A DNA stretch of 20,000 bases from an uncultured virus (IMG/VR IMGVR_UViG_3300005663_000032) (taxonomy: Duplodnaviria > Heunggongvirae > Uroviricota > Caudoviricetes): IMG/VR virus record IMGVR_UViG_3300005663_000032; one strand, given 5' to 3'. Below, one piece after another: positions 1-19,841 of the stretch (its first letter is position 1; each line of letters starts with the position of its first letter). The translations under genes were made by a program, and so were the position numbers. The notes under the pieces were generated by a model. That model saw only the letters and a program-made list of their open reading frames with translations, made no database searches and had not been told where the DNA came from.

Positions 1-81
1 ATAGCCGAACCAGAAATTTGCCCATATTGCAATACTCCCTATAGGACTGTTAAAGAATGTTCACAGGCCTGTTCGAGATAA
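1..81 (+). CDS. 3' end of a CxxC protein (partial; ...ICPYCNTPYRTVKECSQACSR)
   Basis: Frame 1 is open from the window edge to TAA 79-81, which lies in the motif. Confidence 0.7.
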   Translation: MAEPEICPYCNTPYRTVKECSQACSR

Positions 82-87
82 TATTTC

Positions 88-366
88 ATGAAAAAACTAT
101 TCTATGCCCTGTTTATGCATTATAACACAGGAACCGGTCCCGGTGGCAATGGCTTAACTTTTCATTCCGATATGCTCGATGTAAAGAAAGAAATACTACA
201 CGTAATCGAGATTATTCACGAGCCTTTGATATTCACCGATACACAGCTAATGCGTGACATAAACGCAATACATTTACTGAATGGCGATGATGGTGAACGT
301 TTCACAATATATGATGGTTCATGGGGTATAATATTCACAAAATCGACTTATGAAGTGCCCGACTAA
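88..366 (+). CDS. Hypothetical protein
   Basis: ORF bounded by the junction motif at both ends. Confidence 0.85.
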   Translation: MKKLFYALFMHYNTGTGPGGNGLTFHSDMLDVKKEILHVIEIIHEPLIFTDTQLMRDINAIHLLNGDDGERFTIYDGSWGIIFTKSTYEVPD

Positions 367-372
367 TATTTC

Positions 373-801
373 ATGCTAATAATAAAACCGCTAACTCTAA
401 TAAAACCCAATAAAAAAAATTGGACGCTATGTTATTATAAATTAAAAAATGGTTATATACGAATGACAAATTCAGATGTTTATTGGAGTGATGGGATCGG
501 AATATCTACAAAAGATGATATTTTCACAGAACTACCAGATTTCTCATTCAATGATGATTTAAGACATGGATGTGACAATTTTGTTTTTTTTGCTGCACTA
601 ACAATGGAGACAACATACACATGGATTGACACATACGGGAATAAATTCAGCATCATGCCAAGCGAAACAAAAAACATATTGCGATTTCTCTTAGAGGGAA
701 AATTAAAATTAACGTTTGTTGGGACTAGAGGATATATCGAAGCTGATTGGACTCTGACCAAGAAAAACAAAGAATTATCGATAAAACCATATTTTAAATA
801 A
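373..801 (+). CDS. Hypothetical protein
   Basis: 142-aa ORF bounded by motifs. Confidence 0.85.
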   Translation: MLIIKPLTLIKPNKKNWTLCYYKLKNGYIRMTNSDVYWSDGIGISTKDDIFTELPDFSFNDDLRHGCDNFVFFAALTMETTYTWIDTYGNKFSIMPSETKNILRFLLEGKLKLTFVGTRGYIEADWTLTKKNKELSIKPYFK

Positions 802-807
802 TATTTC

Positions 808-849
808 CTGAAACAAATGAAACAAAAACTGAAACAAGTGAAACAAAAA
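808..849 (+). repeat. Tandem 21-bp direct repeat x2 (four TGAAACAA sub-repeats); possible operator
   Basis: CTGAAACAAATGAAACAAAAA (808-828) and CTGAAACAAGTGAAACAAAAA (829-849), one mismatch. Confidence 0.9.
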
Positions 850-850
850 T

Positions 851-890
851 AAAAACATAACATTTTAAACACCGTTACTATATTTAACCT
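851..890 (+). promoter_or_regulatory. Putative archaeal promoter (A-rich BRE-like tract plus TATA box) for a leaderless gene
   Basis: TTTTAAAC at 863-870 lies -28 to -21 from ATG 891; no SD and no adjacent junction motif. Confidence 0.55.
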
Positions 891-1295
891 ATGAATAAAG
901 ATGAGATTGATTTTAAACTAATTCATAAACAACGCAAAACTAAAAAAATGAAACAGATATGTGCGGAACAAGGATATCCATATGATAAAACCCGTTCATG
1001 GTATTCAAGGTGGAAAAAAGAAAGGAAACCAACTAAAAAAACCAAGAAAACTGAAACGCATTCAGGTGTTTCAAATAATATTGCGAAACAGAAAAAAGAA
1101 CAAAACCCTGACCAGATACCAACATATAATGAACTGTTTCAGTTTTTTCAAAATAGTAAAAATCATGTCGATCGGGAATATTGGCTAAAACCAATTAAAA
1201 GAGGTAATAAAGAAGTGCCTCAGATATTTGTAAACAAAGAACTAATTAAAAAAGTGCTCGATGCAATAAGAGACATTCAAAGAACCAAAAAATAA
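891..1295 (+). CDS. Basic protein with putative N-terminal helix-turn-helix
   Basis: KMKQICAEQGYPYDKTRSWYSRWKK resembles an HTH, followed by a Lys-rich linker; the stop lies in a motif. Confidence 0.6.
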   Translation: MNKDEIDFKLIHKQRKTKKMKQICAEQGYPYDKTRSWYSRWKKERKPTKKTKKTETHSGVSNNIAKQKKEQNPDQIPTYNELFQFFQNSKNHVDREYWLKPIKRGNKEVPQIFVNKELIKKVLDAIRDIQRTKK

Positions 1296-1301
1296 TATTT
1301 C

Positions 1302-1622
1302 ATGGCTGAAAAACTTCAGTATCTAGAGTTCTACAAAGAACTTGCTGATTTATTGGATAAATATAGACCAATAAAAGATCAGATTGATTACCGTCGAGAA
1401 GATGAGGATTGGATGCAATTAAGGCTCCCCTATTCATTTATGCTTGGAGATAAAGATTATAGCTATGAGTTATATCTTTACAAATGTTCTAATTCTGATT
1501 GTGGGTCTCAGGACTTTACAAATGAGCCACAAGATAACATCATATGTGAATTCTGCAATAAGGGCACAATGGAAAAAGTGGAACTCACACACCATAACGA
1601 CTGGCTAAAATATTCAAAATAA
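1302..1622 (+). CDS. Hypothetical protein with C-terminal Zn ribbon
   Basis: CSNSDC...CEFC; bounded by motifs. Confidence 0.8.
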   Translation: MAEKLQYLEFYKELADLLDKYRPIKDQIDYRREDEDWMQLRLPYSFMLGDKDYSYELYLYKCSNSDCGSQDFTNEPQDNIICEFCNKGTMEKVELTHHNDWLKYSK

Positions 1623-1628
1623 TATTTC

Positions 1629-1791: not shown

Positions 1792-2073
1792 ATGAAATGC
1801 GAGAATAGACACGATCAATTAAACAATATTCTCCCTGCTAAATGTCTGGCTGGGGAACAAAAGCGAATTGTAACTGTGGATTATGGTTATGAGAAAGATG
1901 AACTCAAACTATGTGTTAAGTGTGCGGGGGCGGTCAAGAGAGACGCTGAGAAACATGGTTACACTGTGACGGTAGCTGAACTAAAAAAAGAAGCCAGATA
2001 TGATGTGACAAACCAAGGCGACTATTATGATCGGATGGATTCTATTCGCCGAGAGGATGCGTTTGATGAATAA
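1792..2073 (+). CDS. Hypothetical Cys-containing protein
   Basis: Upstream AGAGGA (1774-1779); CVKC. Confidence 0.75.
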   Translation: MKCENRHDQLNNILPAKCLAGEQKRIVTVDYGYEKDELKLCVKCAGAVKRDAEKHGYTVTVAELKKEARYDVTNQGDYYDRMDSIRREDAFDE

Positions 2074-2086
2074 AATATAATATTTC

Positions 2087-2680
2087 ATGGAGAACATAAC
2101 TCTATTAACTCCTGAACCATTGATAGATAATGGTGCAGAAAAGGAATTAAAAAAACGCCAAATAAAAGCAACTATAAACGGTGCAATAATTGGGCACTCT
2201 TTTTTAATAATTGTGGCTTTGATATCTTATATTAACAATCCCACTGATTATAACTGGGACGGGGTAATTGTATTTTATCTCATGGTTACTATTGCTTCTA
2301 TATTTGTTGGTACAGTAATATTTTCTGAAGTAGAAAATAATTGGAAGCGTGAAGGTAATAGGCGATTCAAATATATCAAATATGAACGAAAAAACGATGA
2401 AAAAACTGCATATCACCTATTCGCTAAGTTTCTAACATATGTCTATAATGGGTTTTCAACTTTCGACATATTGTGTAGTGATGAACAGGATTGGGAGGAT
2501 GCATTACTCTTCTCAGATCTGACAATTCCTAAACTGAATCCTTACATAAATAAAAAACATTTGTTTGACATGGCCGGATTGGCTATGAATGACATATCTC
2601 AGGGCTTGACTATGATAAAGGAACATGGAAAAATAACTGAAGTAGAAAATTATAAAAAATTATTGAAATTAAGGGTTTAA
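2087..2680 (+). CDS. Membrane protein (2 TM) with soluble C-domain; paralog of 15240..15764
   Basis: Two hydrophobic segments; the C-terminal ...YNGFS...NP...KKHLFDM...GL.MIKE..KI...KLLKL pattern is shared with the paralog. Confidence 0.85.
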   Translation: MENITLLTPEPLIDNGAEKELKKRQIKATINGAIIGHSFLIIVALISYINNPTDYNWDGVIVFYLMVTIASIFVGTVIFSEVENNWKREGNRRFKYIKYERKNDEKTAYHLFAKFLTYVYNGFSTFDILCSDEQDWEDALLFSDLTIPKLNPYINKKHLFDMAGLAMNDISQGLTMIKEHGKITEVENYKKLLKLRV

Positions 2681-2686
2681 TATTTC

Positions 2687-2991: not shown

Positions 2992-3210
2992 ATGAAATGC
3001 AGAAATACGAATAATGAAACCACAATCGAGGCGATGCGAACATATACTAATGTATTTGCGAGTATAGATGATTTGGATATTAATTTTATCAATGAAAATT
3101 TAGATGAAATGAATATTGACAATAGAGCCATAACATACGAATGTTTAGAATGTAATGCACAGTCTACAAGCATTAAATGGGCTAGAGAACACGTAAAGCC
3201 CAAGATTTAA
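2992..3210 (+). CDS. Small hypothetical protein (CLEC)
   Basis: SD AGAGGA 2978-2983; stop in motif. Confidence 0.75.
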   Translation: MKCRNTNNETTIEAMRTYTNVFASIDDLDINFINENLDEMNIDNRAITYECLECNAQSTSIKWAREHVKPKI

Positions 3211-3216
3211 TATTTC

Positions 3217-3621
3217 ATGTTTGTTATTAAAATATTGAAAACAATAACAACACGAAACCCGGAACAGGGTGATTGGAGCGGGGCGACACATGATCAAGGA
3301 ATTCATACCGTTATTCAACCTACTAGATCCGCGATGATACAATGGTTATCTGCAACCTATCCTCTTCTGGAAAAAATAGAGGGAGAGTCGAATAGATGGC
3401 ATTTTGATCAAGTCGAAGACGAGGATAGTATAAAAACCCCAACAGGAAAATACCTTTGTGACTATGATATTTACCTATACGAAACATCTGAATATTCTGG
3501 TGATTTGAATGAACCAATTAAAGCTTTATTAAAAAAATATCAAGATAAAGGCAGTAAGTACACAATGGACGCTTCAAGGGGCCTATTAGCCGAAATAATA
3601 GGCGACCTAAACAAATTATAA
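3217..3621 (+). CDS. Hypothetical protein
   Basis: Bounded by motifs. Confidence 0.85.
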   Translation: MFVIKILKTITTRNPEQGDWSGATHDQGIHTVIQPTRSAMIQWLSATYPLLEKIEGESNRWHFDQVEDEDSIKTPTGKYLCDYDIYLYETSEYSGDLNEPIKALLKKYQDKGSKYTMDASRGLLAEIIGDLNKL

Positions 3622-3627
3622 TATTTC

Positions 3628-3852
3628 ATGGGACATGTAAAAAATGGCCTGTCAACAATGATGCATTCATTGTTTTTTGTATTATATAGTTCCTTATGGA
3701 TATATATTGCAGAGAGATATATTCTTGAATATTATCTGACAACCGAGTCAAAATGGATGGAACTTTTCATTCTTGCAATTGGTTGGATTATTTTTGCCAT
3801 AGGGCATTCTGAATTGGCAGACGCCAGTATAGCGGAGGCACTGGCAGACTAA
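3628..3852 (+). CDS. Small 2-TM membrane protein
   Basis: Two hydrophobic stretches; bounded by motifs. Confidence 0.8.
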   Translation: MGHVKNGLSTMMHSLFFVLYSSLWIYIAERYILEYYLTTESKWMELFILAIGWIIFAIGHSELADASIAEALAD

Positions 3853-3859
3853 TATTTCT

Positions 3860-4204
3860 ATGGGACTAAGACCAAAACCTGTAGCAATGCATAAAGGCAA
3901 ACTGCATTGGATTGACCACGATGAAGTGACACTAACCTCATTTTTATGGAACTTTCCAGCTAACGTTGGAAAAGAGACCCCTGCTCTAACCATAGTGGCA
4001 GAAATAGAAACCCTGCATTCATGTGCATTTCCGGGGTTCTTCAAACCATCAATTCAGGAAGTGTGGAATCAGATTCCAGAACTCTTCAAGGATATTGATT
4101 TACATGCATTTGAAACAAATTTAATTTCAAACGATTTAAATGAATGTTTAACTGAAGATCAATCGAGCCATATTGCAAGAACAAGATTTTACAAGGTGAA
4201 ATAA
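3860..4204 (+). CDS. Hypothetical protein (contains GFFKPSIQEVWNQIP)
   Basis: Starts at TAATATTTCT-ATG; its stop overlaps the next ATG. Confidence 0.8.
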   Translation: MGLRPKPVAMHKGKLHWIDHDEVTLTSFLWNFPANVGKETPALTIVAEIETLHSCAFPGFFKPSIQEVWNQIPELFKDIDLHAFETNLISNDLNECLTEDQSSHIARTRFYKVK

Positions 4205-4344
4205 TGAAAGCACGTTTTATGATACAAAGCGATGAGGGATTTACACAAATCATCATATATATCACTGACAGACAATATGAGTGGCTGAAGGACAAATTGA
4301 CAAAGAAAAAACCAATTGAAATAACTGAAGTCGAAAAAATATAA
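4204..4344 (+). CDS. Small hypothetical protein, 46 aa (MKARFMIQSDEG...)
   Basis: TAATG overlap, SD AGGTGA at 4194-4199, stop in motif. Confidence 0.75.
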   Translation: MKARFMIQSDEGFTQIIIYITDRQYEWLKDKLTKKKPIEITEVEKI

Positions 4345-4350
4345 TATTTC

Positions 4351-4692
4351 ATGGATGAAATAAACACCATTATTAACGCAATTTCTGTCAAATGTGGATT
4401 AACTCCACAGCATAGTGAAACTCTTTCAAAATGGGTTCCTATTGGTCTAGAACTATATGGGCTGAAAACAACTCCAATAAACATTGGTTGTATATATTAT
4501 ATGGTAACACACGATTTGATTGACGATAGACTATATAGTCACAAAGGTAGACAATATAGGACGGTTACACAACAAAAAATTGCGAAAGCAGTAGGCTGTA
4601 CTATTCAAACAATAAACACAAACTACAAAAAAATACTACATTCTAAACCCGATTCAGTATGGCTTGAGTATAAAACCCGAATGAATCTATAA
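4351..4692 (+). CDS. Stand-alone TFB/TFIIB-like C-terminal cyclin repeat with HTH
   Basis: ISVKCGLT...PINIGCIYY...TVTQQKIAKAVGCTIQTINTNYKKI parallels the TFB second repeat (..LGLS..P..LAAAALY..RTQ.EVA..AGVTEVTIRNRYKEL). Lacks the Zn ribbon and first repeat. Confidence 0.7.
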   Translation: MDEINTIINAISVKCGLTPQHSETLSKWVPIGLELYGLKTTPINIGCIYYMVTHDLIDDRLYSHKGRQYRTVTQQKIAKAVGCTIQTINTNYKKILHSKPDSVWLEYKTRMNL

Positions 4693-4698
4693 TATTTC

Positions 4699-4947
4699 AT
4701 GGGTACACCACCTATAGAAGAAATTCAATTAAAAGTTCAACGCGAAGCATGCCAGGCTTGGTTTGAAGATATCGAAGAACTATTGTTTTGCTCAAACGGA
4801 GCGGAATGTGATGGCAATCACAAAACAACTCATGAAAATATGCGATGGACTTACCCCGGTGCAGCTGAGGGAGAAGAAGAATATGAGCACACCATCACAG
4901 TGGAATTGAGTTGGAAAATCACAGTCACAAAGAGCGAAAAAATATAA
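4699..4947 (+). CDS. Hypothetical acidic protein
   Basis: Bounded by motifs. Confidence 0.8.
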   Translation: MGTPPIEEIQLKVQREACQAWFEDIEELLFCSNGAECDGNHKTTHENMRWTYPGAAEGEEEYEHTITVELSWKITVTKSEKI

Positions 4948-4953
4948 TATTTC

Positions 4954-5343
4954 ATGCCTGAACAGAAAAGATTGTGGATTGCAGGATCAAGTAAGGATTT
5001 TAACCTAGATGAAAAAACTATCAAGGCATTGATTTTACATTACATGATAATAAATATGGATTTAAGAGGTAATTCTATTGTTGGTCATGGTGCGGCAAAA
5101 GGTGTTGATACACTGGTAGATGAAGTTGCCACAGAATTGCAAACAGTTCCGATTCATAGACTTCCTGCGGAATGGGTAAAAGATGGAAAATATCGCAACT
5201 ATGCCGGAATGTTAAGAAACACAGAAGGTGTGGATTGGTCTACAGGGGTAATAGTATTCTGGAACGGAGTCTCTCCTGGGACTGCAGATGTTATCAAAAA
5301 AGCAAGGAAAGCAGGAAAACTCCTTGAAATCATAAAAATATAA
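4954..5343 (+). CDS. SLOG-superfamily protein (YspA/cpYpsA/DUF2493-like)
   Basis: IAGS, HGAAKGVD, PAEW, AGMLRN and FWNGVSPGTADVI are the family hallmark motifs. Confidence 0.8.
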   Translation: MPEQKRLWIAGSSKDFNLDEKTIKALILHYMIINMDLRGNSIVGHGAAKGVDTLVDEVATELQTVPIHRLPAEWVKDGKYRNYAGMLRNTEGVDWSTGVIVFWNGVSPGTADVIKKARKAGKLLEIIKI

Positions 5344-5349
5344 TATTTC

Positions 5350-5922
5350 ATGGTTCAAAAAACCAAACTTGTTTTATTCATAATCTTTTTATTAATATTA
5401 CCTGTTAATGGACAAAACATACCAACAATTCATGAATTTGATTTCAAAGGATTGAATAATAAAGGAAACGAATGGATAAAATACAGATTATGCTTTGAAT
5501 ATTCTATTTTTGAGAGCACGACAAAAATAAGTGTCAATTTCACGACTGACTATCCACTGGCCTCGATACATGCGGATGTAACGGGTTTTAATGACGGTAC
5601 AACAACAAAGCAAGAAGGCCTGCTATTCAAACAGGACGAATTAAACGTTTGGTTCTTCCCTAGAAACACTACCGCATTTTTCTACGAAATGGATTTTTTT
5701 TATGAACGCCATCCAGGTAGTGCATATGATGGTTATAACAAAGAATATCCAATCGGTGCTCATAAAACTATCACGGAATCAGTGATTCTCAATCGTACAT
5801 GTAATTGGTCTGTATTGGATAAAAACAAACTGTTTACTGTGGGGGCTGCGTCATATCCTCTTTCATTTGGATTGCTGGCTATCGGCCTCCTACTTCTCAC
5901 TAAAAAATATTTCAATGTGTAG
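5350..5922 (+). CDS. Secreted/surface protein with signal peptide and C-terminal membrane anchor
   Basis: N-terminal MVQKTKLVLFIIFLLILPVNG; C-terminal YPLSFGLLAIGLLLLTKK; several NxT/S sequons. Confidence 0.75.
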   Translation: MVQKTKLVLFIIFLLILPVNGQNIPTIHEFDFKGLNNKGNEWIKYRLCFEYSIFESTTKISVNFTTDYPLASIHADVTGFNDGTTTKQEGLLFKQDELNVWFFPRNTTAFFYEMDFFYERHPGSAYDGYNKEYPIGAHKTITESVILNRTCNWSVLDKNKLFTVGAASYPLSFGLLAIGLLLLTKKYFNV

Positions 5923-5936
5923 AAGAATAATATTTC

Positions 5937-6158
5937 ATGTTTTTCAAAAAAGAAAACATCGATTCTATGTATTCGCTATTAATACTATTTTTGGTATTTC
6001 TATTAATACTTAGATATTTTGGAATTTTCATGGCTCTCACTACAATTTTAATTTGGGTATGGGTTGGCCTTCTGGTGATTATATTTGCATATGATGTCAA
6101 AAGCGGACATTTCGCCGAAGAGATTAAGAAGAAAAAAAATAAACAAACACCTCGCTGA
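5937..6158 (+). CDS. Small 2-TM membrane protein; near-duplicate of 13629..13877
   Basis: 22 mismatches over the first 183 nt (about 88% identity, manual alignment). Confidence 0.85.
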   Translation: MFFKKENIDSMYSLLILFLVFLLILRYFGIFMALTTILIWVWVGLLVIIFAYDVKSGHFAEEIKKKKNKQTPR

Positions 6159-6180
6159 ACGAAGTGTTAATTAATATTTC

Positions 6181-6297: not shown

Positions 6298-6303
6298 TAT
6301 TTC

Positions 6304-6663: not shown

Positions 6664-6671
6664 TATTTCAC

Positions 6672-7163: not shown

Positions 7164-7172
7164 ATATTTCAC

Positions 7173-12166: not shown

Positions 12167-12172
12167 TATTTC

Positions 12173-12448: not shown

Positions 12449-12457
12449 ATATTTCGC

Positions 12458-13318: not shown

Positions 13319-13324
13319 TATTTC

Positions 13325-13622: not shown

Positions 13623-13628
13623 TATTTC

Positions 13629-13877: not shown

Positions 13878-13892
13878 TATTTCGGTGGCTGA

Positions 13893-14054
13893 ATGCGAAT
13901 AAGTAAAGACCTACCAAATCCAGATCATTTTGAAAAATGCCAAAGTTGTTTGAAATCCTATGATGCAATGACAAAAGTAGACATAGGGAAAACACGCCCT
14001 TGGAGTTTTTATTTATGTTCTGACTGTAAAGATGAATTAAAAGAAAAATTATAA
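13893..14054 (+). CDS. Zn-finger micro-protein, 53 aa
   Basis: CQSC...LCSDC; GGTGG upstream; stop in motif. Confidence 0.8.
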   Translation: MRISKDLPNPDHFEKCQSCLKSYDAMTKVDIGKTRPWSFYLCSDCKDELKEKL

Positions 14055-14060
14055 TATTTC

Positions 14061-14246
14061 ATGGCATTTACTAACAGATACCTAAAATCATTTCATTGGT
14101 TCTCACTAGGCATGGTGGTGGGTTGGGGAGTGAGTCGTCGCGCTGAAATTGAAAACTGGAATCAAGATTACATCTGGCTTATACTAATTCTAATCCCATT
14201 TTTAATGATAGGATTGGATTCTCTGCTTCCAGAGAAAAAAGATTAA
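14061..14246 (+). CDS. Small 2-TM membrane protein
   Basis: Bounded by motifs. Confidence 0.8.
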   Translation: MAFTNRYLKSFHWFSLGMVVGWGVSRRAEIENWNQDYIWLILILIPFLMIGLDSLLPEKKD

Positions 14247-14252
14247 TATTTC

Positions 14253-14435
14253 ATGGACAAAGTTCATCGAGGCGATATTATGAATGATATATCTGATAGC
14301 CTCACAGTGGAATTAAAACCTCACGAAAAATCAGTTCATTGCAATGAAAACTGTGTTACGAATGAGAAATTCGCCAATGCAATGGATAACATTTGGAGTG
14401 CAATTAAAGGCTACTTCAAAGAACAAATTGCCTAA
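14253..14435 (+). CDS. Small hypothetical protein
   Basis: Bounded by motifs. Confidence 0.8.
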   Translation: MDKVHRGDIMNDISDSLTVELKPHEKSVHCNENCVTNEKFANAMDNIWSAIKGYFKEQIA

Positions 14436-14441
14436 TATTTC

Positions 14442-14699
14442 ATGAGTATTTGTGATACCGAATACGAAACAACAAACGCAAAAGGCGATTATATTGTGGG
14501 TGTCAAATGTCCGAAAGAACACGATGACCACTGTGCGAACCACTGCCCATTGGAGGAAGATTCTAAACAACTCGAGGATACCTATGATGTTGCAGACGCA
14601 GATGAGAATGAATGCTCACTAGAGGCCACTTTTACTTGTATTTACTGTGGAAAAGTAAATCATACCAAAACAATTTATTATGCTAAAGTGGACGAATAA
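14442..14699 (+). CDS. Acidic Cys-rich small protein
   Basis: CANHC, CIYC; bounded by motifs. Confidence 0.8.
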   Translation: MSICDTEYETTNAKGDYIVGVKCPKEHDDHCANHCPLEEDSKQLEDTYDVADADENECSLEATFTCIYCGKVNHTKTIYYAKVDE

Positions 14700-14706
14700 T
14701 ATTTCT

Positions 14707-15192
14707 ATGCCAGATGACATGAACAACTGTGGAAGCTGTCAAAACTTAACTTTTTTTATATCTGCCTGTTTTCATTGTGAGGCTAAAATTTGTAGAGAAT
14801 GTTATCGAAATAACCATGGAGATAATTGCTTATATAATCAGTACAAACAAAAAACTATTCAGACAGAAAAAGAAAAAGAAAAATGGCGACCTCTCACAGA
14901 AGAAGAACTTGTGACATATGAACGGAATAGAAAATCACAGATTAACTATACCGAAAACATGATCGAGAATGATAAACTCGATATTGAGAAATATTATCGT
15001 TGGATTAAAAAAGATAAGGAATTAATGAAAAAAATTCCAAAGCGAATCAAGGCTCGAAAACGAGCTATTGAGAAAAAAAGAAAAAGACTCGAATACTCCG
15101 AAAAAAGCCTTGAACATCATAAAAAACCAATTGATTACAAAAAATTGGAAATAGCCGATGATGGCTATATTACTAAATACAAACACGAATAA
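14707..15192 (+). CDS. N-terminal Zn finger plus basic coiled-coil protein
   Basis: Start moved to the motif ATG; CGSC, CFHC, CREC..H..C. Confidence 0.8.
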   Translation: MPDDMNNCGSCQNLTFFISACFHCEAKICRECYRNNHGDNCLYNQYKQKTIQTEKEKEKWRPLTEEELVTYERNRKSQINYTENMIENDKLDIEKYYRWIKKDKELMKKIPKRIKARKRAIEKKRKRLEYSEKSLEHHKKPIDYKKLEIADDGYITKYKHE

Positions 15193-15239
15193 TATTTCAT
15201 TAATTGCGGAAAAAGAAACTGCAAGAAAATTAATATTTT

Positions 15240-15764: not shown

Positions 15765-15784
15765 TGTTTGATGAATAATATTTC

Positions 15785-16246: not shown

Positions 16247-16265
16247 TATTGATGGATAATATTTC

Positions 16266-17282
16266 ATGATTACAAAAAATCAATCATTGTACTTTGTATG
16301 GGAATTGCACACACAAATAATTGATATTAAAAAAGGTACAGCAAGATTTGCTAATAAAAACCTTTTTTGGTATATTGGAAAAGAGGAGGATTTGAAAATA
16401 GAATTTCCGGATACGGAAGATACTACTTTTGGGTTCTGCAACCCTTCAATTCCAATTATTGTGATGAAATCTAGACAAACTGATTCCAACATTCTTCAGA
16501 ATAAGGCATTTATTGGAAATGCATTTGCAGAAGCAAAAAGACTTAACGCAGACATATCTGATTATGAAGAATGGCTAATTTATGAGAAAAACATGCAAAC
16601 TCCAAGGATTCAATGCGAGACTTGTAAGAAAATTAATGAATGCAATGTAGCGATGGACTTTCCTTTTTATTGTGATGGTACAATGAAGTGGAAAAACAAT
16701 GAACTCTCCTGTTTGGCTACGTTTGATTTTAAATCACATTCGTACAAACTCAGAGAAACAGATATCGAGACATTGAAAGCACAATGTTTTGAAGAAGATG
16801 GATCTCAATGCTGGATTAATGCCTGCTGTAAACTGAGCCACAAAGACCATGCTTTTATTAATGTAGAAGATGACGGACGGCGAAAGCTTAGTTGGTTCAA
16901 AACAGAACAACAATGTACCAATTGTGGCACTAGAAAAGTTGGCTTGAAAGACAAATATTCTTTAGAAAAACTAAAAGACAAATTGTTTGAATTATTTGTG
17001 GATCAATATATGACATATTGGCGACAACGTAATAGAAGTTCTGAGATGATGGCCAAAGGTTACACCGAAAGACAAAGAGATATCCACACAGAGATTAAAG
17101 TAATTATAGAGGGTGATATGATGGTTGTTCAGAAGGCGGTAACAAAAGCTGAAGAAAAATATGGTGATTTTTCTTCTATTGTTATGGATCTTAACAATGA
17201 ATCAGAAGCTCTGGCAAAAGCTTATGATTATGCAGATGTATCCACAAATTACATCATGCAGTATGAATTGGGGTTAGAGTAA
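16266..17282 (+). CDS. Hypothetical multi-Cys protein, 338 aa
   Basis: Bounded by motifs; CETC, CC..H, CTNC. Confidence 0.85.
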   Translation: MITKNQSLYFVWELHTQIIDIKKGTARFANKNLFWYIGKEEDLKIEFPDTEDTTFGFCNPSIPIIVMKSRQTDSNILQNKAFIGNAFAEAKRLNADISDYEEWLIYEKNMQTPRIQCETCKKINECNVAMDFPFYCDGTMKWKNNELSCLATFDFKSHSYKLRETDIETLKAQCFEEDGSQCWINACCKLSHKDHAFINVEDDGRRKLSWFKTEQQCTNCGTRKVGLKDKYSLEKLKDKLFELFVDQYMTYWRQRNRSSEMMAKGYTERQRDIHTEIKVIIEGDMMVVQKAVTKAEEKYGDFSSIVMDLNNESEALAKAYDYADVSTNYIMQYELGLE

Positions 17283-17327
17283 ATATTTCATGTGTAACCA
17301 ACACGAATATCTCGGGGCTGATTTTTA

Positions 17328-17693
17328 ATGTTTGAATGGTTGAAAAGCATTTTCAAAAAGAAAAAGTCATGGGAAGATATGGCTTGGTCTGGATATGAAT
17401 ATAAGACTGAATTGATTGAAATGCCAAGAATTGATTATGGTTTTCAAGAAAATTATGAGATATTTAATACTGCAAAAACACTTTATGATCTTGCAATTAA
17501 TAATAATTTTGATCTTGAAGATTGGGTTCAAACAGATTCAGAAATATTTGGACAAGTTGATTTTGAAGAGGATACGTCTGATATGATGCTAGAAATAATA
17601 GATTCACTCTCTTTGTATGATCTTCTAAATTATCTTGCAATGACTTTTGGATTTGAAATTCAAAGCACGCATGAGCTATTTTCAAGCCCTTAA
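17328..17693 (+). CDS. Hypothetical acidic protein
   Basis: TAATG overlap with a 12-codon ORF (17290..17328); GGGGCTGA upstream. Confidence 0.75.
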   Translation: MFEWLKSIFKKKKSWEDMAWSGYEYKTELIEMPRIDYGFQENYEIFNTAKTLYDLAINNNFDLEDWVQTDSEIFGQVDFEEDTSDMMLEIIDSLSLYDLLNYLAMTFGFEIQSTHELFSSP

Positions 17694-17730
17694 CTGCGAA
17701 TTAGAAGTTTATGATTATGGGTAATATTTC

Positions 17731-17904
17731 ATGGATCACATTGATTGGGATCAATATGGGTGGATGTCTCAGGGTACAGGCGGAGATGGAAGTGGTAACA
17801 AAATCATCATTAAAATACTGTAAGCTTTTTGCGACAAACCAATGCATAATAAATGCATAATCGCACACCTAACTACGGATCACAAAGATGACCTCGAAGA
17901 ATAA
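17731..17904 (+). pseudogene. Motif-to-motif 57-codon unit with internal TAA; degenerate C2H2-like finger
   Basis: ATG 17731 and TAA 17902 are in frame; internal TAA at 17821; downstream FCDKPMHNKCIIAHLTTDH. Confidence 0.55.
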
Positions 17905-17911
17905 TATTTCT

Positions 17912-18910
17912 ATGGATACCGAAAAATTGGAAGCCATACAGGAACTGCCCGATTCTCACAAAATTATATTTTTAGAAGGGGTAGACCCATCAAAACTGAC
18001 AACTACTTTTAATTGTCAAGGGTGTGGCACTAGATGTTGTACTGGGCCAACTATTGGCCCAAACGTATTATATGCACCAATAACATTTGCATATTATCGT
18101 AAGAAGCACGGAAGGGAAAAGTTTGAAGAAATATACAGAAAATTCAGCCACCACATTGGTCAATACTCTTTATTGCCATTAATTACAACCGAAGAACCTT
18201 TCTGCCCATTTCTTTATTTAGAATGGACTGGAGCAAACAAAAAGGTCATAATGGGTAATCTGAAAACATTAGATCTTCAGCTGAAGAAACTAATGCGAAC
18301 TACTATCAAGAAATTGGACGATGCGGAACAGAAAGAATTCACATTTCGTGAACTCTGGGATCTTTTATCGGCCGAAGATGAAGGCGAAACTCTTCTCATA
18401 TTCAACCTGTTTGTGGGGCCATTGATCGATAATCAGGTAACGAAAAAACACATAAAAACTATGTGTGGTGTATATGAGGCACAACCTGCTCAATGCCGAC
18501 CATTTCCATTTGGGCGTGCTTGGTCTGTTAACATGGAAACAAATGAGCGAGAAGAATTTGTCAAACTGGTTGACGATTTACAATGCCCACCAACGGCATT
18601 TGAAGGAAAAGAAATCGGGGTTGATACATTCTTTAAGCAACAAAATGTTGCAGATTATCCTGCTTGGACAGAGAAACTAACTCTTCTTCTGAATACAAAC
18701 AAGGAACTGATGGAATTTGCTGGAGAAAAATCGAAAGACATGATTTATTTTGCTATAGACCAAATACTGTATCACAGACCTGTTTACAACTCAGACGAAA
18801 GCGCCTTCAACGAAGCGTTAGAGAAAGAAATTGACATACTCGTTGGACTCTTTGAAGAACTGAAAGCAACAGTGGCTCTTACAAATGAGTTTCTGGCACA
18901 AAAGAAATAA
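17912..18910 (+). CDS. YkgJ-family (CxxCxxCC) Zn/Fe-S cluster protein
   Basis: FNCQGCGTRCC, FCPFL, CGVYEAQPAQCRPFPF, CP; start moved to the motif ATG. Confidence 0.8.
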   Translation: MDTEKLEAIQELPDSHKIIFLEGVDPSKLTTTFNCQGCGTRCCTGPTIGPNVLYAPITFAYYRKKHGREKFEEIYRKFSHHIGQYSLLPLITTEEPFCPFLYLEWTGANKKVIMGNLKTLDLQLKKLMRTTIKKLDDAEQKEFTFRELWDLLSAEDEGETLLIFNLFVGPLIDNQVTKKHIKTMCGVYEAQPAQCRPFPFGRAWSVNMETNEREEFVKLVDDLQCPPTAFEGKEIGVDTFFKQQNVADYPAWTEKLTLLLNTNKELMEFAGEKSKDMIYFAIDQILYHRPVYNSDESAFNEALEKEIDILVGLFEELKATVALTNEFLAQKK

Positions 18911-18918
18911 TATTTCTC

Positions 18919-19143
18919 ATGGAAAGAAAAGACTATGGACATTATTATTTTGCCATTATTATGGTAATCGCCGCTGTGGTGTTATATGCGCAGGCAGACG
19001 ATCTATCCATCGATAGGGTATTGGCAGTAATACTTGTATTCGCGGCTTTTTTTTACCTTAAATACAGGGAGAGAAAAAGAAGAGAATATATTGCTGGTGA
19101 ATTGCAGACCAGAAATGGAATTGATGAATTAAATGCCGAATAA
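18919..19143 (+). CDS. Small 2-TM membrane protein
   Basis: Motif start; two hydrophobic helices. Confidence 0.8.
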   Translation: MERKDYGHYYFAIIMVIAAVVLYAQADDLSIDRVLAVILVFAAFFYLKYRERKRREYIAGELQTRNGIDELNAE

Positions 19144-19312
19144 AATAAATAACACGAACATTTACAATAATGCAAACTTACATTGGTTAAAGTATCAAGA
19201 TAAAGTAACTGATGCTCGATTAACTGATATTGAACAAATCACAGCATTAACTACTTATATCAAAGAATTAACTAATATTCTAGAGTTGAATGTAAAGAAA
19301 CTCTCGGAATAA
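19133..19312 (+). CDS. Small hypothetical protein, 59 aa (MPNKINNTNIY...)
   Basis: Overlaps the previous stop; ends on motif TAA. Confidence 0.7.
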   Translation: MPNKINNTNIYNNANLHWLKYQDKVTDARLTDIEQITALTTYIKELTNILELNVKKLSE

Positions 19313-19337
19313 TATTTCGAATGAATTGGTGTAAATA

Positions 19338-19475
19338 ATGATAAGAAGAATAATAGAAATAATAATAAACTGGTTTATAAAACCTATACCACATGCAGAT
19401 GTGATAGTTACAGGAATAAATTCAAAAGGAGAGCAGATTATAGATTTTGAAAGTCTGTTATATCCATCAAGATGA
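19338..19475 (+). CDS. Small hypothetical protein, 45 aa (MIRRIIEIIINWF...)
   Basis: TAATG overlap at the start, ATGA overlap at the end. Confidence 0.6.
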   Translation: MIRRIIEIIINWFIKPIPHADVIVTGINSKGEQIIDFESLLYPSR

Positions 19476-19768
19476 CTAAAAAAAGAAAGGGTGTTTGGTT
19501 TCCAGATGGGCCTCACCTATCTCAAGTTGACACACTATCTGGACTAACCGAAGCTCCTTCTGAGAAACCATATGATTATTATGAAGGAAACCCTATTAGT
19601 ATTGGCAAAACTATTAGTTGTGATTGTATTCAATTTGCATTACAAAGAAAAGTATCATATGGTTCGAGTCTATTAGATAAAGCAGACTATTGTGAATGTG
19701 AACATACCAAAAAATCCCACGAACACGGGAAAGGAAAATGTCTCAAACAATGGATCAAAAAAGAATAA
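19472..19768 (+). CDS. Hypothetical Cys/His protein
   Basis: CECEHTKKSH...C; ATGA overlap. Confidence 0.7.
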   Translation: MTKKRKGVWFPDGPHLSQVDTLSGLTEAPSEKPYDYYEGNPISIGKTISCDCIQFALQRKVSYGSSLLDKADYCECEHTKKSHEHGKGKCLKQWIKKE

Positions 19769-19841
19769 CTTTGCAATGGATAATATTTCTGAAAATCATG
19801 ATGAGAAACATGGTTTTTTTATGATAATGGTGAAAAAATAA

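What the first reader, a model, noticed from the sequence alone, without database searches (positions are those of the whole stretch)
79..19789. About 53 genes joined by one ultra-short junction motif (TAATATTTCATG): candidate novel gene-cassette array
Seen: the core AATATTTC occurs at about 51 gene junctions, plus 2 one-base variants, all in one orientation. I noticed only two reverse-strand matches (14988, 17541) and one internal forward match (5906), close to my rough chance estimate of 1-2 per strand. The TAA is usually the upstream stop and the ATG usually follows within 0-4 nt. The units between motifs are mostly promoterless, unrelated single genes, ranging from about 13 bp to about 1 kb. 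Known: promoterless single-gene units with the stop codon inside the boundary site is integron-cassette architecture, but attC sites are long imperfect palindromes with GTTRRRY cores, and none is present here. Inference: this is either (a) an integron-like gene capture/shuffling system with a ~9-bp site in an archaeal MGE, or (b) a per-gene expression signal such as termination-reinitiation, an mRNA cleavage site that makes leaderless mRNAs, or an element-specific transcription initiator. The two models are not exclusive. The duplicated, empty, promoter-only and decayed units favour (a).
Basis: partly seen in the sequence, partly recalled or inferred. Interest (0 to 1): 0.95.

Follow-up and report, generated by a model that had tools for sequence, protein, structure and literature searches.

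The report
Eight-base signal before nearly every gene
In an uncultured 131-kb virus-like DNA from marine sediment, almost every one of about 90 tiny unknown genes is immediately preceded by the same exact eight bases, which look like a new kind of gene-start "punctuation mark" that replaces the normal ribosome-binding site rather than a site for shuffling genes.

Summary
AATATTTC occurs 52 times on the + strand and 2 times on the - strand of the window (shuffles: mean 3.2). With 15 kb of upstream contig it occurs 87 times on + and 3 times on - in 35 kb. Nothing else is conserved from -60 to +40 except T/A at -1 and the ATG.

The motif belongs to gene starts. 69 of 87 copies have a start within 4 nt, and 71 of 89 genes carry the motif. 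Genes without it tend to carry Shine-Dalgarno-like sequences (9 of 22, against 2 of 76 motif-led genes). The motif's 3' half, TATTTC, is avoided inside genes on the sense strand only. No hairpin, recombinase, host-type promoter or terminator was found.

Best reading: an RNA-level, start-linked expression signal, most likely a processing site that yields leaderless mRNAs. A promoter for a special polymerase and a ribosome-recruiting element remain rivals. The integron-like reading is not supported but could not be tested on relatives. No relative carrying the motif was found.

The parts
80..19789 (+). Window part of the co-oriented gene array punctuated by (T/A)AATATTTC. It continues at least 15.2 kb upstream in the same record and runs to the record's end.
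80..87 (+). Motif; TAA at its 5' edge; ATG directly after (88-366, 92 aa)
365..372 (+). Motif; overlaps the stop of 88-366; ATG directly after (373-801, 142 aa)
800..807 (+). Motif overlapping the stop of 373-801; no long ORF adjacent. An 11-aa ORF starts 9 nt on; the next gene, 891-1295, lies 83 nt downstream ('orphan' copy).
1294..1301 (+). Motif; stop overlap; ATG directly after (1302-1622, 106 aa)
1621..1628 (+). Motif; stop overlap; ATG directly after (1629-1787, 52 aa)
2079..2086 (+). Motif 8 nt after the upstream stop; ATG directly after (2087-2680, 197 aa)
2679..2686 (+). Motif; stop overlap; ATG directly after, but the ORF is only 26 aa
2925..2932 (+). Orphan motif followed by a 2-codon ORF. 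The SD-led gene 2992-3210 lies 59 nt downstream.
3209..3216 (+). Motif; stop overlap; ATG directly after (3217-3621, 134 aa)
3620..3627 (+). Motif; stop overlap; ATG directly after (3628-3852, 74 aa)
3851..3858 (+). Motif; stop overlap; ATG after 1 nt (3860-4204, 114 aa)
4343..4350 (+). Motif; stop overlap; ATG directly after (4351-4692, 113 aa)
4691..4698 (+). Motif; stop overlap; ATG directly after (4699-4947, 82 aa)
4946..4953 (+). Motif; stop overlap; ATG directly after (4954-5343, 129 aa; phrog_289 GTP-binding-domain-like)
5342..5349 (+). Motif; stop overlap; ATG directly after (5350-5922, 190 aa)
5906..5913 (+). Copy inside the last codons of 5350-5922 (A at -1, no TAA). It looks like a former junction that is now read through to the TAG at 5920.
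5929..5936 (+). Motif; ATG directly after (5937-6158, 73 aa); left edge of duplicate D1
6173..6180 (+). Motif 17 nt after the upstream stop; ATG directly after (6181-6297, 38 aa)
6296..6303 (+). Motif; stop overlap; ATG directly after (6304-6663, 119 aa)
6662..6669 (+). Motif; stop overlap; ATG after 2 nt (6672-7163, 163 aa)
7163..7170 (+). Motif with A at -1 (the TAA ends 1 nt into the motif); ATG after 2 nt (7173-7694, 173 aa; paralog of 6672-7163)
7693..7700 (+). Motif; stop overlap; ATG after 1 nt (7702-7887, 61 aa)
7886..7893 (+). Motif; stop overlap; ATG directly after (7894-8115, 73 aa; weak zinc-ribbon hit)
8114..8121 (+). Motif; stop overlap; ATG directly after (8122-8346, 74 aa)
8380..8387 (+). 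Orphan exact copy, 36 nt after the upstream stop and 29 nt before the variant copy at 8417
8417..8424 (+). One-mismatch variant GATATTTC directly before the ATG of 8425-8763 (112 aa)
8762..8769 (+). Motif; stop overlap. GTG follows after 6 nt (8776-9270, WGR-domain protein) or ATG at 8791.
9256..9263 (+). Motif lying inside the 3' end of 8776-9270; ATG directly after (9264-9605, 113 aa)
9604..9611 (+). Motif; stop overlap; ATG directly after (9612-9842, 76 aa)
10012..10019 (+). Motif with A at -1; ATG directly after (10020-10376, 118 aa)
10375..10382 (+). Motif; stop overlap; ATG directly after (10383-10589, 68 aa)
10588..10595 (+). Motif; stop overlap; ATG after 4 nt (10600-11133, 177 aa)
11133..11140 (+). 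Motif with A at -1; ATG directly after (11141-11344, 67 aa)
11397..11404 (+). Motif 55 nt after the upstream stop, yet directly before ATG (11405-11953, 182 aa)
11952..11959 (+). Motif; stop overlap; ATG directly after (11960-12166, 68 aa)
12165..12172 (+). Motif; stop overlap; ATG directly after (12173-12448, 91 aa)
12448..12455 (+). Motif with A at -1; ATG after 2 nt (12458-13318, ATP-dependent NHEJ-type DNA ligase, 286 aa)
13317..13324 (+). Motif; stop overlap; ATG directly after (13325-13510, 61 aa)
13621..13628 (+). Motif 113 nt after the upstream stop, yet directly before ATG (13629-13877, 82 aa); left edge of the second D1 copy
13876..13883 (+). Motif; stop overlap; ATG after 9 nt (13893-14054, 53 aa)
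14053..14060 (+). Motif; stop overlap; ATG directly after (14061-14246, 61 aa)
14245..14252 (+). Motif; stop overlap; ATG directly after (14253-14435, 60 aa; paralog of a gene 16 kb upstream)
14434..14441 (+). Motif; stop overlap; ATG directly after (14442-14699, 85 aa)
14698..14705 (+). Motif; stop overlap; ATG after 1 nt (14707-15192, 161 aa)
15191..15198 (+). Orphan exact copy overlapping the stop of 14707-15192, 33 nt before the variant copy at 15232
15232..15239 (+). One-mismatch variant AATATTTT directly before the ATG of 15240-15764 (174 aa)
15777..15784 (+). Motif 15 nt after the upstream stop; ATG directly after (15785-16246, 153 aa)
16258..16265 (+). Motif 14 nt after the upstream stop; ATG directly after (16266-17282, 338 aa; no homolog found)
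17282..17289 (+). Motif with A at -1; ATG directly after, but the ORF is only 12 aa; gene 17328-17693 lies 38 nt downstream
17723..17730 (+). Motif; ATG directly after; 30-aa ORF
17903..17910 (+). Motif; ATG after 1 nt (17912-18910, 332 aa; cysteine-rich, one distant relative is named Fe-S-cluster protein)
18909..18916 (+). Motif; stop overlap; ATG after 2 nt (18919-19143, 74 aa)
19311..19318 (+). Motif overlapping the stop of 19133-19312, followed by only a 5-aa ORF (orphan)
19782..19789 (+). Last copy before the record's end; an 8-aa ORF starts 8 nt on
14988..14995 (-). Reverse-strand match inside a + strand gene; count is at chance level
17541..17548 (-). Reverse-strand match inside a + strand gene; count is at chance level
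1792..2073 (+). Gene without the motif, 4 nt after the upstream stop, with SD-like GAGGA upstream (distal cistron type)
2992..3210 (+). Gene without an adjacent motif; SD-like AGAGGA 9 nt before its ATG; orphan motif 59 nt upstream
4204..4344 (+). Gene without the motif, overlapping the upstream stop (ATGA), with SD-like AGGTGA
9860..10012 (+). Gene without the motif, 17 nt after the upstream stop, with SD-like AGGAG
5928..6119 (+). Duplicate D1, copy A (89% identical to copy B). Similarity starts exactly at the motif and ends about 45 nt before the next motif.
13620..13811 (+). Duplicate D1, copy B

Best explanation
(T/A)AATATTTC is a start-linked gene 'punctuation' signal, read on the sense strand and most likely in the RNA. 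On this reading the co-oriented array is transcribed into long polycistronic RNA. A sequence-specific endoribonuclease, viral or host, cuts at or just 3' of UAUUUC. The upstream message then ends just after its UAA stop, and the downstream message begins at or within 0-4 nt of its AUG, so it is translated as a leaderless mRNA without a Shine-Dalgarno sequence. Genes that lack the motif stay attached as second cistrons, or sit behind a short leader, and use an ordinary Shine-Dalgarno sequence.

Shown: the anatomy, the replacement of SD, the sense-only avoidance, and the absence of hairpins and of host-type promoter elements.

Inferred: that the signal acts in RNA, that it is cut, and that the products are leaderless.

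The broader claim, an expression signal and not a recombination site, I hold at about 0.85. The specific cleavage mechanism I hold at about 0.4.
For: 1. The signal is exact and tightly bounded. There are 87 exact copies on + and 3 on - in 35,183 bp. No other column from -60 to +40 carries information except -1 (T in 69, A in 16, C in 2) and the ATG. Only 3 one-mismatch variants sit before starts, against 64 exact copies.

2. It belongs to the start. 69 of 87 copies have a curated gene start within 4 nt (45, 11, 11, 1 and 1 copies at 0, 1, 2, 3 and 4 nt). Where the upstream stop is 12-113 nt away, the motif still abuts the ATG (u4684, u7872, u8180, w11397, w13621, w15777, w16258). GTG and TTG starts also sit right after it (u5062, u262, u15040).

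3. It also closes the upstream gene. 57 of 87 copies overlap the upstream stop, and 46 do both. A cut site between two messages would look like this.

4. It replaces the SD. SD-like 4-mers occur at -18..-4 in 2 of 76 motif-led genes, 9 of 22 motif-less genes and 11% of random positions. Duplex energy to an anti-SD probe differs between motif-less and motif-led genes (p = 3e-6) and between motif-less genes and random positions (p = 2e-4).

5. Unit architecture. Of 89 curated genes, 71 have the motif within 9 nt upstream. Of the other 18, 7 are tightly coupled to the gene before (gap of -11 to +17 nt), and 11 have the nearest upstream motif end 26-373 nt away. 'Leaderless first cistron, SD on distal or leadered cistrons' is the pattern described for Saccharolobus in PMC7531240 (passages read).

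6. Sense-only avoidance. On the + strand TATTTC occurs 90 times: 87 in the motif, 1 in a variant before an ATG, and only 2 inside genes. Expected counts are 13.3 (maximal-order Markov; the most under-represented hexamer, z = -3.2), 17.2 +/- 4.3 (order-2 simulations) and 14.4 +/- 3.6 (codon shuffling of 89 genes; observed 4, counting 2 full motifs; 1 of 1000 shuffles was as low). The reverse complement is not avoided (28 observed, 30.7 expected; 37 copies on the - strand). An internal cut site would destroy a message. An extra sense promoter in a terminator-free array would cost little, and an antisense one should cost more.

7. Host-type promoter geometry does not fit. There is no TATA-like or -35-like signal at any distance. 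Sigma-70-like sites are at the shuffle level (93 found, 91.3 expected) and there is no convincing + strand terminator.

8. Precedent. T4 RegB cuts GGAG in the initiation regions of early mRNAs and needs an 11-nt conserved context (PMC1702504, abstract seen in the listing).
Against: - No RNA data exist. No RNA run holds this DNA, so no 5' end has been seen.
- No ribonuclease family was found among 89 proteins. The other 95 kb of the record could not be read.
- An 8-9-nt specificity is longer than I recall for most known sequence-specific RNases.
- The avoidance statistic rests on small counts (2-4 observed against 13-17 expected). As the extreme of about 2,900 hexamers, z = -3.2 is not remarkable by itself; it counts only as a pre-planned test of the motif's sub-words.
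- Strand-specific avoidance would also fit a signal read in single-stranded DNA.
- Two one-mismatch variants directly before ATGs each have an exact orphan copy 29-33 nt upstream. A pure cut-to-leaderless model does not predict this.
Confidence: 0.4

Rival explanations
1. The motif is a minimal promoter or initiator for a non-canonical, probably virus-encoded RNA polymerase. Transcription starts at or next to the A of ATG, so each gene gets its own leaderless transcript. This would resemble the roughly 9-nt promoters of phage-type single-subunit polymerases in organelles, or poxvirus late initiators that overlap the ATG (both recalled, not checked here).
For: - The motif is exact, oriented, and at a fixed distance from ATG.
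- A pyrimidine precedes the ATG in nearly all copies.
- The unit architecture fits: SD on second cistrons, and orphan copies 26-83 nt before several motif-less genes.
- No other promoter-like signal appears in 35 kb.
- Per-gene conserved promoter motifs are known in large viruses: T4-type PeSLs (PMC2839356, abstract), a TATA-like motif before most ORFs in one arm of HGTV-1 (PMC3950731, passage), and AAATATTT in marseilleviruses (PMC7192143, passages).
Against: - All the information lies within 9 nt upstream of the start. A bacterial -10 element at -12..-7 or an archaeal TATA box near -26 cannot produce a transcript that starts at this ATG (geometry recalled; absence of such signals). A special polymerase is therefore required, and none was found in the 35 kb read.
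- The sense-only avoidance of TATTTC, with no antisense avoidance, is the opposite of what a short promoter core predicts in a terminator-free array.
Confidence: 0.25
2. The motif is an SD-independent translation signal inside long polycistronic mRNA. It would act as a landing or re-initiation pad that places ribosomes on the adjacent AUG, possibly also serving as the binding site of a viral translational regulator. No cleavage would be involved.
For: - The motif occupies exactly the space where an SD would sit, and motif-led genes lack an SD (2 of 76) while motif-less genes tend to have one (9 of 22).
- 46 of 87 junctions place a UAA stop 6-10 nt before the next AUG. That distance is favourable for termination-reinitiation, as discussed for archaeal gene pairs in PMC7531240 (passages).
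- One-mismatch variants directly before ATGs are kept at 3 genes.
Against: - The motif has no complementarity to the anti-SD core. A spacing of 0-2 nt to the AUG is too short for an SD-like helix (geometry recalled).
- Canonical SDs on the motif-less genes argue that the host ribosome is ordinary.
- A/U-richness alone would not keep 8 positions invariant in 87 copies.
- The motif works without an upstream stop nearby (gaps of 12-113 nt), so it is not simple reinitiation.
- 18 of 87 copies are not next to a curated gene start (more than 4 nt away), yet all are exact, and several lie at the head of a leader before an SD-led gene.
- TATTTC is avoided even where no ATG follows.
Confidence: 0.2
3. 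The motif is the recombination site of an integron-like capture and shuffling system, as the first reader's model (a) proposes, possibly acting on one DNA strand.
For: - The units are single, unrelated, co-oriented genes bounded by one repeat.
- Duplicate D1 and the paralog pair u12443/w14253 start exactly at the motif.
- Two copies sit back to back at u243/u252, and several units are 'empty' or truncated.
- Strand-specific avoidance would also fit a single-strand DNA site.
Against: - No hairpin or palindrome surrounds the site. Flank-to-flank duplex energy is -3.48 kcal against -3.52 for mismatched controls (p = 0.52), and the window has only one unrelated inverted pair.
- No integrase, transposase, HUH or reverse transcriptase family appears among 89 proteins.
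- The right end of D1 lies about 45 nt before the next motif.
- A recombination site has no need to abut the ATG when the intergenic gap is 12-113 nt, nor to replace the SD.
- Contigs of three runs from two samples show identical order, no indels and one weak joint whose shorter side is 27 nt.
Confidence: 0.05

Closest known systems
PeSL (promoter-early stem-loop) cassettes in hyperplastic regions of T4-type phages (PMC2839356 and PMC4122927, abstracts read)
   Same: A short conserved regulatory element is repeated before many small, non-essential, mostly unknown genes in a large virus. Because it is repeated, it could also serve as a substrate for recombination.
   Different: A PeSL is a composite of a sigma-70-like promoter and a terminator stem-loop, and it lies in real intergenic space. 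Here the element is 8-9 nt long, has no stem-loop and no sigma-70 pattern. It overlaps the upstream stop, abuts the ATG and replaces the SD. Recombination at the motif could not be tested.
Conserved motif before most ORFs in one arm of the archaeal myovirus HGTV-1 (PMC3950731, one passage read; the primary paper was not seen)
   Same: A large tailed virus (144 kb, against 131 kb here) in which most ORFs of one genome arm are preceded by one conserved A/T-rich motif. Its ligase is a distant relative of the window's ligase (27.9% identity).
   Different: The HGTV-1 motif is described as a TATA-box-like region plus an inverted repeat. Here there is no inverted repeat, and the distance to the ATG rules out a TATA box for the adjacent gene. 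I did not examine the HGTV-1 motif itself.
T4 RegB target sites (PMC1702504, abstract in the search listing; PMC3014915, listing only)
   Same: A short sequence in the translation initiation region of many early phage mRNAs is recognised by a sequence-specific endoribonuclease, with a wider conserved context of 11 nt.
   Different: The RegB site is the SD itself (GGAG), and cleavage inactivates the mRNA. Here the motif is not an SD, and cleavage is proposed to create the translatable 5' end. No RegB-like protein was found.
Per-gene promoter motifs of nucleocytoplasmic large DNA viruses, especially AAATATTT of marseilleviruses (PMC7192143, passages read)
   Same: An exact A/T-rich 8-mer linked to more than half of the genes. 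7 of its 8 bases match this motif, and 16 of the 87 copies here contain AAATATTT (A at -1).
   Different: The marseillevirus motif lies in intergenic regions, in single or multiple copies. Here there is one copy per gene, one strand only, a fixed position against the ATG, phage-like tiny genes and SD-led second cistrons.
Integron gene cassettes (attC and IntI)
   Same: An array of co-oriented, mostly single-gene, unrelated units bounded by a repeated site.
   Different: There is no attC-like imperfect palindrome and no integrase in 35 kb. The site is tied to the start codon, not to the 3' end of a cassette.

Membership tests
Integron cassette array | An attC site at each cassette boundary: an imperfect palindrome of roughly 57-141 bp with inverse core sites (definition recalled) | tested here: not met
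   Only 9 columns are conserved. The flanks do not pair with each other more than mismatched controls do (-3.48 vs -3.52 kcal, p = 0.52). The window has one unrelated inverted pair.
Integron cassette array | An adjacent IntI tyrosine recombinase with attI and Pc | tested here: inconclusive
   No recombinase family among 89 proteins from 35 kb (Pfam; PHROGs for 43 window proteins; NCBIfam). The other 95 kb of the record could not be read.
Integron cassette array | Gain, loss or reordering of units with breakpoints at the site | not testable with these tools
   No relative could be fetched. Contigs of 3 runs (2 samples, 1 study) show the same order and no indels.
PeSL regulatory cassettes (T4-type phages) | A sigma-70-like early promoter within the repeat | tested here: not met
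   No -35 or -10 pattern in the profile. Sigma-70-like sites: 93 found against 91.3 in shuffles.
PeSL regulatory cassettes (T4-type phages) | A stem-loop terminator within the repeat | tested here: not met
   One search finds no flank pairing. One search finds no convincing + strand terminator at the junctions.
Shine-Dalgarno ribosome-binding site | Complementarity to the anti-SD core, placed about 5-10 nt before the start | tested here: not met
   The motif contains no G. 2 of 76 motif-led genes have an SD-like 4-mer at -18..-4, against 9 of 22 motif-less genes.
Leaderless genes driven by host RNA polymerase | A -10 element at about -12..-7 (bacteria) or a TATA box near -26 (archaea) relative to the ATG (geometry recalled) | tested here: not met
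   No information at -35..-20. The invariant bases lie at -8..-1, with A rather than T at -7.
Sequence-specific mRNA processing (RegB- or MazF-like) | Avoidance of the site within the sense strand of the genes that must survive | tested here: met
   TATTTC is seen 2 times inside genes against 13-17 expected; the antisense word is seen 28 times against 30.7 expected.
Sequence-specific mRNA processing (RegB- or MazF-like) | RNA 5' and 3' ends at the site, and a nuclease that makes them | not testable with these tools
   No RNA run holds the sequence. No RNase family in 35 kb.
Marseillevirus-type AAATATTT promoter | Motif in intergenic regions of a nucleocytoplasmic large DNA virus, single or multiple copies, before genes on either strand | tested here: not met
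   One strand only (87 against 3), one copy per gene, abutting the ATG. SD-led second cistrons and bacterial-type Ku and NHEJ ligase hits point to a prokaryotic virus.

The most novel reading that the evidence does not exclude
A large prokaryotic virus transcribes tens of kilobases of accessory genes as one RNA. It then punctuates that RNA with a dedicated 8-9-nt cleavage signal placed between each UAA and the next AUG, turning some 90 genes into leaderless monocistronic messages. This would be a viral counterpart of mitochondrial 'tRNA punctuation', using a sequence-specific RNase with unusually long specificity that could serve as a tool. The same repeated 12-mer may also let genes be swapped as units.
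Probability: 0.35. Interest if true: 0.9.

Novelty: new variant of a known kind. Interest (0 to 1): 0.74.

Why it matters
Conserved per-gene signals are known in large viruses. I found no description of an exact 8-mer that overlaps the upstream stop, abuts the next start, replaces the Shine-Dalgarno sequence and is avoided inside genes on the sense strand. The 12-mer gave 0 papers and the record name gave 0 papers.

If the signal is an RNA cut site, it points to an unknown long-specificity endoribonuclease and a new way of expressing compact gene arrays as leaderless mRNAs. If it is a promoter, it is among the shortest complete promoters known and implies an unusual polymerase. Either way it gives a simple, testable handle: one junction in a reporter. 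The genome's roughly 90 genes here are almost all without relatives.

Tried and rejected
**Whole genome and rest of the record.** No genome is held for the window, and the record behind L027 is not held. Whether the motif also precedes structural or replication genes stays open.

**Relatives carrying the same motif.** Motif-pair scans gave the following:
- IMG/VR with three gap ranges: 6 + 5 + 6 loci.
- 185,579 species genomes: 21 loci.

I ranked every locus by motif density and strand bias. I read the motif sites of all 6 loci and of the densest or most strand-biased loci of the other scans: 11 of 112, 3 of 21 and 1 of 11. Apart from the window's own record, the dense ones were tandem satellites or repeat proteins and the rest held a few scattered copies.

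**Relatives by protein.**
- The 338-aa and 486-aa proteins have no homolog other than themselves.
- The ligase has a 57%-identical relative (P0030) on a 46-kb contig.
- Relatives of the 332-aa protein lie on contigs of 1.5-20 kb and were not in IMG/VR.

**RNA evidence.** No RNA holder is listed for the sequence.

**Read and contig evidence for shuffling.** No indels were seen. One joint, 7903 to 14253, has a shorter side of 27 nt and no shared letters, so it is too weak to use. Loose ends at 7903, 12072/12112 and 14847/14880 suggest related sequences in the same samples, but these could not be followed.

**TATA-box reading.** Rejected for the adjacent gene. The ATG next to the motif opens the ORF at 71 of 89 curated genes, and paralog alignments start at residue 1.

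**Read-through polyprotein with a Tyr-Phe-Met linker** (TAA TAT TTC ATG is in frame). Rejected. The synonymous positions are invariant, and the frame changes at imperfect junctions.

**Rep or HUH nick site.** The 9-mer differs by one base from the geminivirus origin nonanucleotide (recalled). I found no stem-loop around it, and a nick site would not need to abut the ATG.

**Other checks without result.**
- tRNA scan and Rfam: nothing.
- ESM Atlas for the two large ORFans: only a HEAT-like solenoid lead and nothing usable.
- Earlier findings of this scan: none for this genome or for P0030.

Full report
**1. The observation**

AATATTTC occurs 54 times in the window, 52 on the + strand and 2 on the - strand. 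200 dinucleotide-preserving shuffles gave a mean of 3.23 and at most 10 for both strands together. ATG follows directly in 34 of the 52 forward copies, after 1 nt in 6, after 2 nt in 5, after 4 nt in 1 and after 8-9 nt in 3. Three copies have no ATG within 20 nt. Thirty copies are exact TAATATTTCATG. The base before the 8-mer is T in 45 copies and A in 7. In 37 cases the stop codon of the preceding motif-led ORF overlaps the motif.

**2. Where the window lies and how far the array goes**

No whole genome is held for the window. A motif-pair scan of metagenome contigs showed that the window is the last 20 kb (110,906-130,905) of the record LAZR01000084.1, which is 130,905 bp long. It also gave me 15,183 bp of upstream sequence (L027). 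The array runs through all of that sequence: the joined 35,183 bp hold 87 forward and 3 reverse copies. Both ends of the array are therefore unknown. In that scan, pair hits in this record fell only at 105.7-121 kb.

Contigs from three DNA runs (two samples, one study) cover the window with no indels and cross many junctions without a difference. The array is therefore not an assembly artefact.

**3. Anatomy of the signal**

A position profile over the 87 copies shows information only in three places: position -1 (T in 69, A in 16, C in 2), the eight invariant bases, and the ATG. A weak A/T preference appears at -3 and -2. Nothing is conserved from -60 to -4 or from +12 to +40, so there is no TATA-like or -35-like element at any distance.

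The flanks do not pair with each other more than mismatched controls do (-3.48 against -3.52 kcal/mol, p = 0.52). Sigma-70-like sites are at the shuffle level (93 found, 91.3 expected), and there is no convincing + strand terminator. The signal is thus a bare 8-9-mer.

It is also remarkably exact. Among 93 candidate + strand ORFs, 64 have the exact 8-mer within 12 nt of the ATG and only 3 have a one-mismatch variant there. Over the whole + strand there are 87 exact copies and 24 one-mismatch words.

**4. The motif belongs to gene starts and marks the head of expression units**

I curated 89 genes of 45 aa or more. Against this map:
- 69 of 87 copies have a start within 4 nt (45, 11, 11, 1 and 1 copies at 0, 1, 2, 3 and 4 nt).
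- 57 of 87 copies overlap the upstream stop, and 46 do both.

Where the upstream stop is 12-113 nt away, the motif still abuts the ATG rather than the stop or any other place in the gap (u4684, u7872, u8180, w11397, w13621, w15777, w16258). Three long ORFs start with GTG or TTG right after the motif (u5062, u262, u15040). Paralog alignments begin at residue 1, so the adjacent ATG is the real start.

Of the 89 genes, 71 carry the motif within 9 nt upstream and 18 do not.
- 7 of the 18 are tightly coupled to the gene before them (gap of -11 to +17 nt).
- 11 of the 18 have the nearest upstream motif end 26-373 nt away, with short ORFs or leaders in between.

Genes without the motif carry Shine-Dalgarno-like 4-mers at -18..-4 in 9 of 22 cases. 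The figure is 2 of 76 for motif-led genes and 11% for random positions. Duplex energies to an anti-SD probe differ accordingly: p = 3e-6 for motif-less against motif-led genes, and p = 2e-4 for motif-less genes against random positions. The host therefore has an ordinary anti-SD, and the motif stands in for the SD. 'First cistron without a leader, distal or leadered cistrons with an SD' is the pattern described for Saccharolobus (PMC7531240, passages).

**5. Sense-strand avoidance**

The hexamer TATTTC, the motif's 3' half, occurs 90 times on the + strand. Of these, 87 lie in the motif, one lies in the variant before the ATG at 8425, and only two lie inside genes. The expected numbers outside the motif are:
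- 13.3 by a maximal-order Markov model, where TATTTC is the most under-represented hexamer (z = -3.2);
- 17.2 +/- 4.3 by order-2 simulation;
- 14.4 +/- 3.6 by shuffling codons within the 89 genes (observed 4, counting two full motifs that lie in gene ends; 1 of 1000 shuffles was as low).

The 5-mers TATTT and ATTTC, the palindromic AATATT and the reverse complement GAAATA are not depleted (GAAATA: 28 observed, 30.7 expected). The - strand holds 37 TATTTC.

As an unplanned scan over about 2,900 hexamers, z = -3.2 would not be notable. As a planned test of the motif's sub-words it is significant, and it is strand-specific. Something that reads the sense strand appears to recognise as little as TATTTC, and such sites are not tolerated inside genes.

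**6. What it most likely is**

These facts favour a start-linked expression signal read on the sense strand, most simply in the RNA. My preferred mechanism (about 0.4) is punctuation of a long polycistronic transcript by a sequence-specific endoribonuclease. The cut would fall at or just after UAUUUC. The upstream message would keep its UAA, and the downstream message would begin at or within 0-4 nt of its AUG and be translated as a leaderless mRNA.

This one mechanism explains several things together:
- why the motif touches both the stop and the start;
- why it replaces the SD;
- why motif-less genes are SD-led second cistrons or sit behind leaders that begin with an orphan copy;
- why no promoters or terminators are seen in 35 kb;
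- why internal sense copies are strongly avoided while antisense copies are not.

T4 RegB is a precedent for a phage RNase aimed at a short sequence in the initiation regions of early mRNAs, with an 11-nt conserved context (PMC1702504, abstract in the listing). RegB, however, inactivates its targets.

What is shown is the anatomy and the statistics. That the signal acts in RNA, that it is cut, and that the products are leaderless are inferences. No RNA data exist for this element.

**7. Rivals**

(a) *A minimal promoter or initiator for a special polymerase (about 0.25).* Exactness, orientation and the unit architecture all fit, and per-gene promoter motifs are known in large viruses (PeSLs, PMC2839356 and PMC4122927 abstracts; HGTV-1, PMC3950731 passage; marseillevirus AAATATTT, PMC7192143 passages). 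However, all the information lies at -9..-1. That does not fit the recalled geometry of bacterial -10 elements or archaeal TATA boxes, so a non-canonical polymerase is needed, and none is in the 35 kb I read. The avoidance pattern is also the wrong way round for a promoter.

(b) *An SD-independent ribosome landing or re-initiation element (about 0.2).* This fits the replacement of the SD and the short distance from UAA to AUG. It does not explain the eight invariant bases, function without a nearby upstream stop, exact orphan copies at the head of leaders, or avoidance of TATTTC where no ATG follows.

(c) *An integron-like recombination site (about 0.05 as the primary function).* Single-gene units, a duplicate and a paralog pair that start at the motif, two back-to-back copies (u243/u252) and truncated units speak for it. 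Against it are the lack of any hairpin, the absence of a recombinase among 89 proteins, the right end of the duplicate lying about 45 nt before the next motif, the tie to the ATG, and the stable order in three runs. Passive recombination between the roughly 90 identical 12-mers, as shown for PeSLs, remains plausible but could not be tested.

**8. What the element is**

Of the 89 proteins, 85 match no NCBIfam family at E <= 0.001, and Pfam and PHROGs name little more. The hits, not all above the curated cut-offs, are:
- an ATP-dependent NHEJ-type DNA ligase (12458-13318; Pfam E = 7e-39; NCBIfam TIGR02779 E = 2e-45, below its curated cut-off);
- a bacterial-type Ku (L027:7063-7860; E = 1e-13 over the full profile, below cut-off);
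- a helix-hairpin-helix protein (L027:11235-11726);
- a WGR-domain protein (8776-9270);
- a phrog_289 GTP-binding-domain-like protein (4954-5343);
- weaker hits below or at cut-off, such as a zinc ribbon (7894-8115) and DUF1828 (L027:5340-5765).

The 338-aa and 486-aa proteins have no homolog in 5.8 billion sequences. Tiny co-oriented genes, SD-led coupling and a Ku-ligase pair point to a large virus or other mobile element of a prokaryote. The host domain is open, and 'archaeal' is not established.

**9. Novelty**

The 12-mer and the record name gave no papers. No other DNA in IMG/VR (three gap ranges), the scanned part of the JGI/ENA metagenomes or 185,579 species genomes carries such an array: the dense hits were satellites or repeat proteins and the rest held a few scattered copies. 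It is a related idea but a different element.

I class this as a new variant of a known kind, namely per-gene conserved signals in accessory regions of large viruses. There is a real chance (about 0.35) that it is something categorically new, an RNA punctuation system.

Noticed in passing
L027:7063-7860 and window 12458-13318: The array encodes a bacterial-type Ku (E = 1e-13 over the full profile length, below cut-off) and an NHEJ-type ATP-dependent ligase, which together form a two-component end-joining set. The Ku gene is one of the few without an adjacent motif. An orphan copy lies 26 nt upstream, and the leader holds a perfect 6-bp hairpin with a GCAA loop (L027:7038-7053).
   Followed up: partly
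window 8776-9270: A stand-alone WGR-domain protein (Pfam E = 2e-5). A ligase relative (P0031, 41% identity, 384 aa) carries a WGR domain fused to the ligase, so the two window genes may work together.
   Followed up: no
window 8380-8424 and 15191-15239: Two of the three one-mismatch variants that sit directly before an ATG each have an exact 'orphan' copy upstream, with 29 and 33 nt between the two. No model explains this pairing well.
   Followed up: partly
L027:243-259: Two motif copies lie back to back (AAATATTTC then TAATATTTC), followed after 2 nt by a GTG that opens a 440-codon ORF.
   Followed up: partly
motif-led genes of the 35-kb array: In-frame ATG codons are somewhat enriched at codons 10-11 (6 and 5 of 69 genes, against about 1-2 at other codons). 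Part of this comes from paralogs, and the significance is marginal.
   Followed up: no
window 808-852: After the orphan copy at 800, an open frame reads a lysine/glutamine-rich repeat built from several near-identical CTGAAACAA/ATGAAACAA/GTGAAACAA units. It may be a decayed gene or a small repeat peptide.
   Followed up: no
window 13511-13600: The 113-nt gap before the motif at 13621 holds a long-range inverted repeat (TGGGGGAG ... CTCCCCA). It is the only sizeable non-coding structure candidate I saw in the window.
   Followed up: no
window 7903, 12072-12112, 14847-14880: Contigs of the three DNA runs match these short stretches and then run on with unrelated sequence (loose ends). This suggests other junctions or related elements in the same samples. 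One joint, 7903 to 14253, was seen at high depth but with a shorter side of only 27 nt.
   Followed up: no
window 17912-18910: A cysteine-rich 332-aa protein (invariant C35, C38, C42, C43, C98, C185, C195 and C225 in an 11-sequence alignment). It is the only large ORFan with relatives: 25 distant hits on short metagenome contigs, one of which a source names 'Fe-S-cluster containing protein'.
   Followed up: partly
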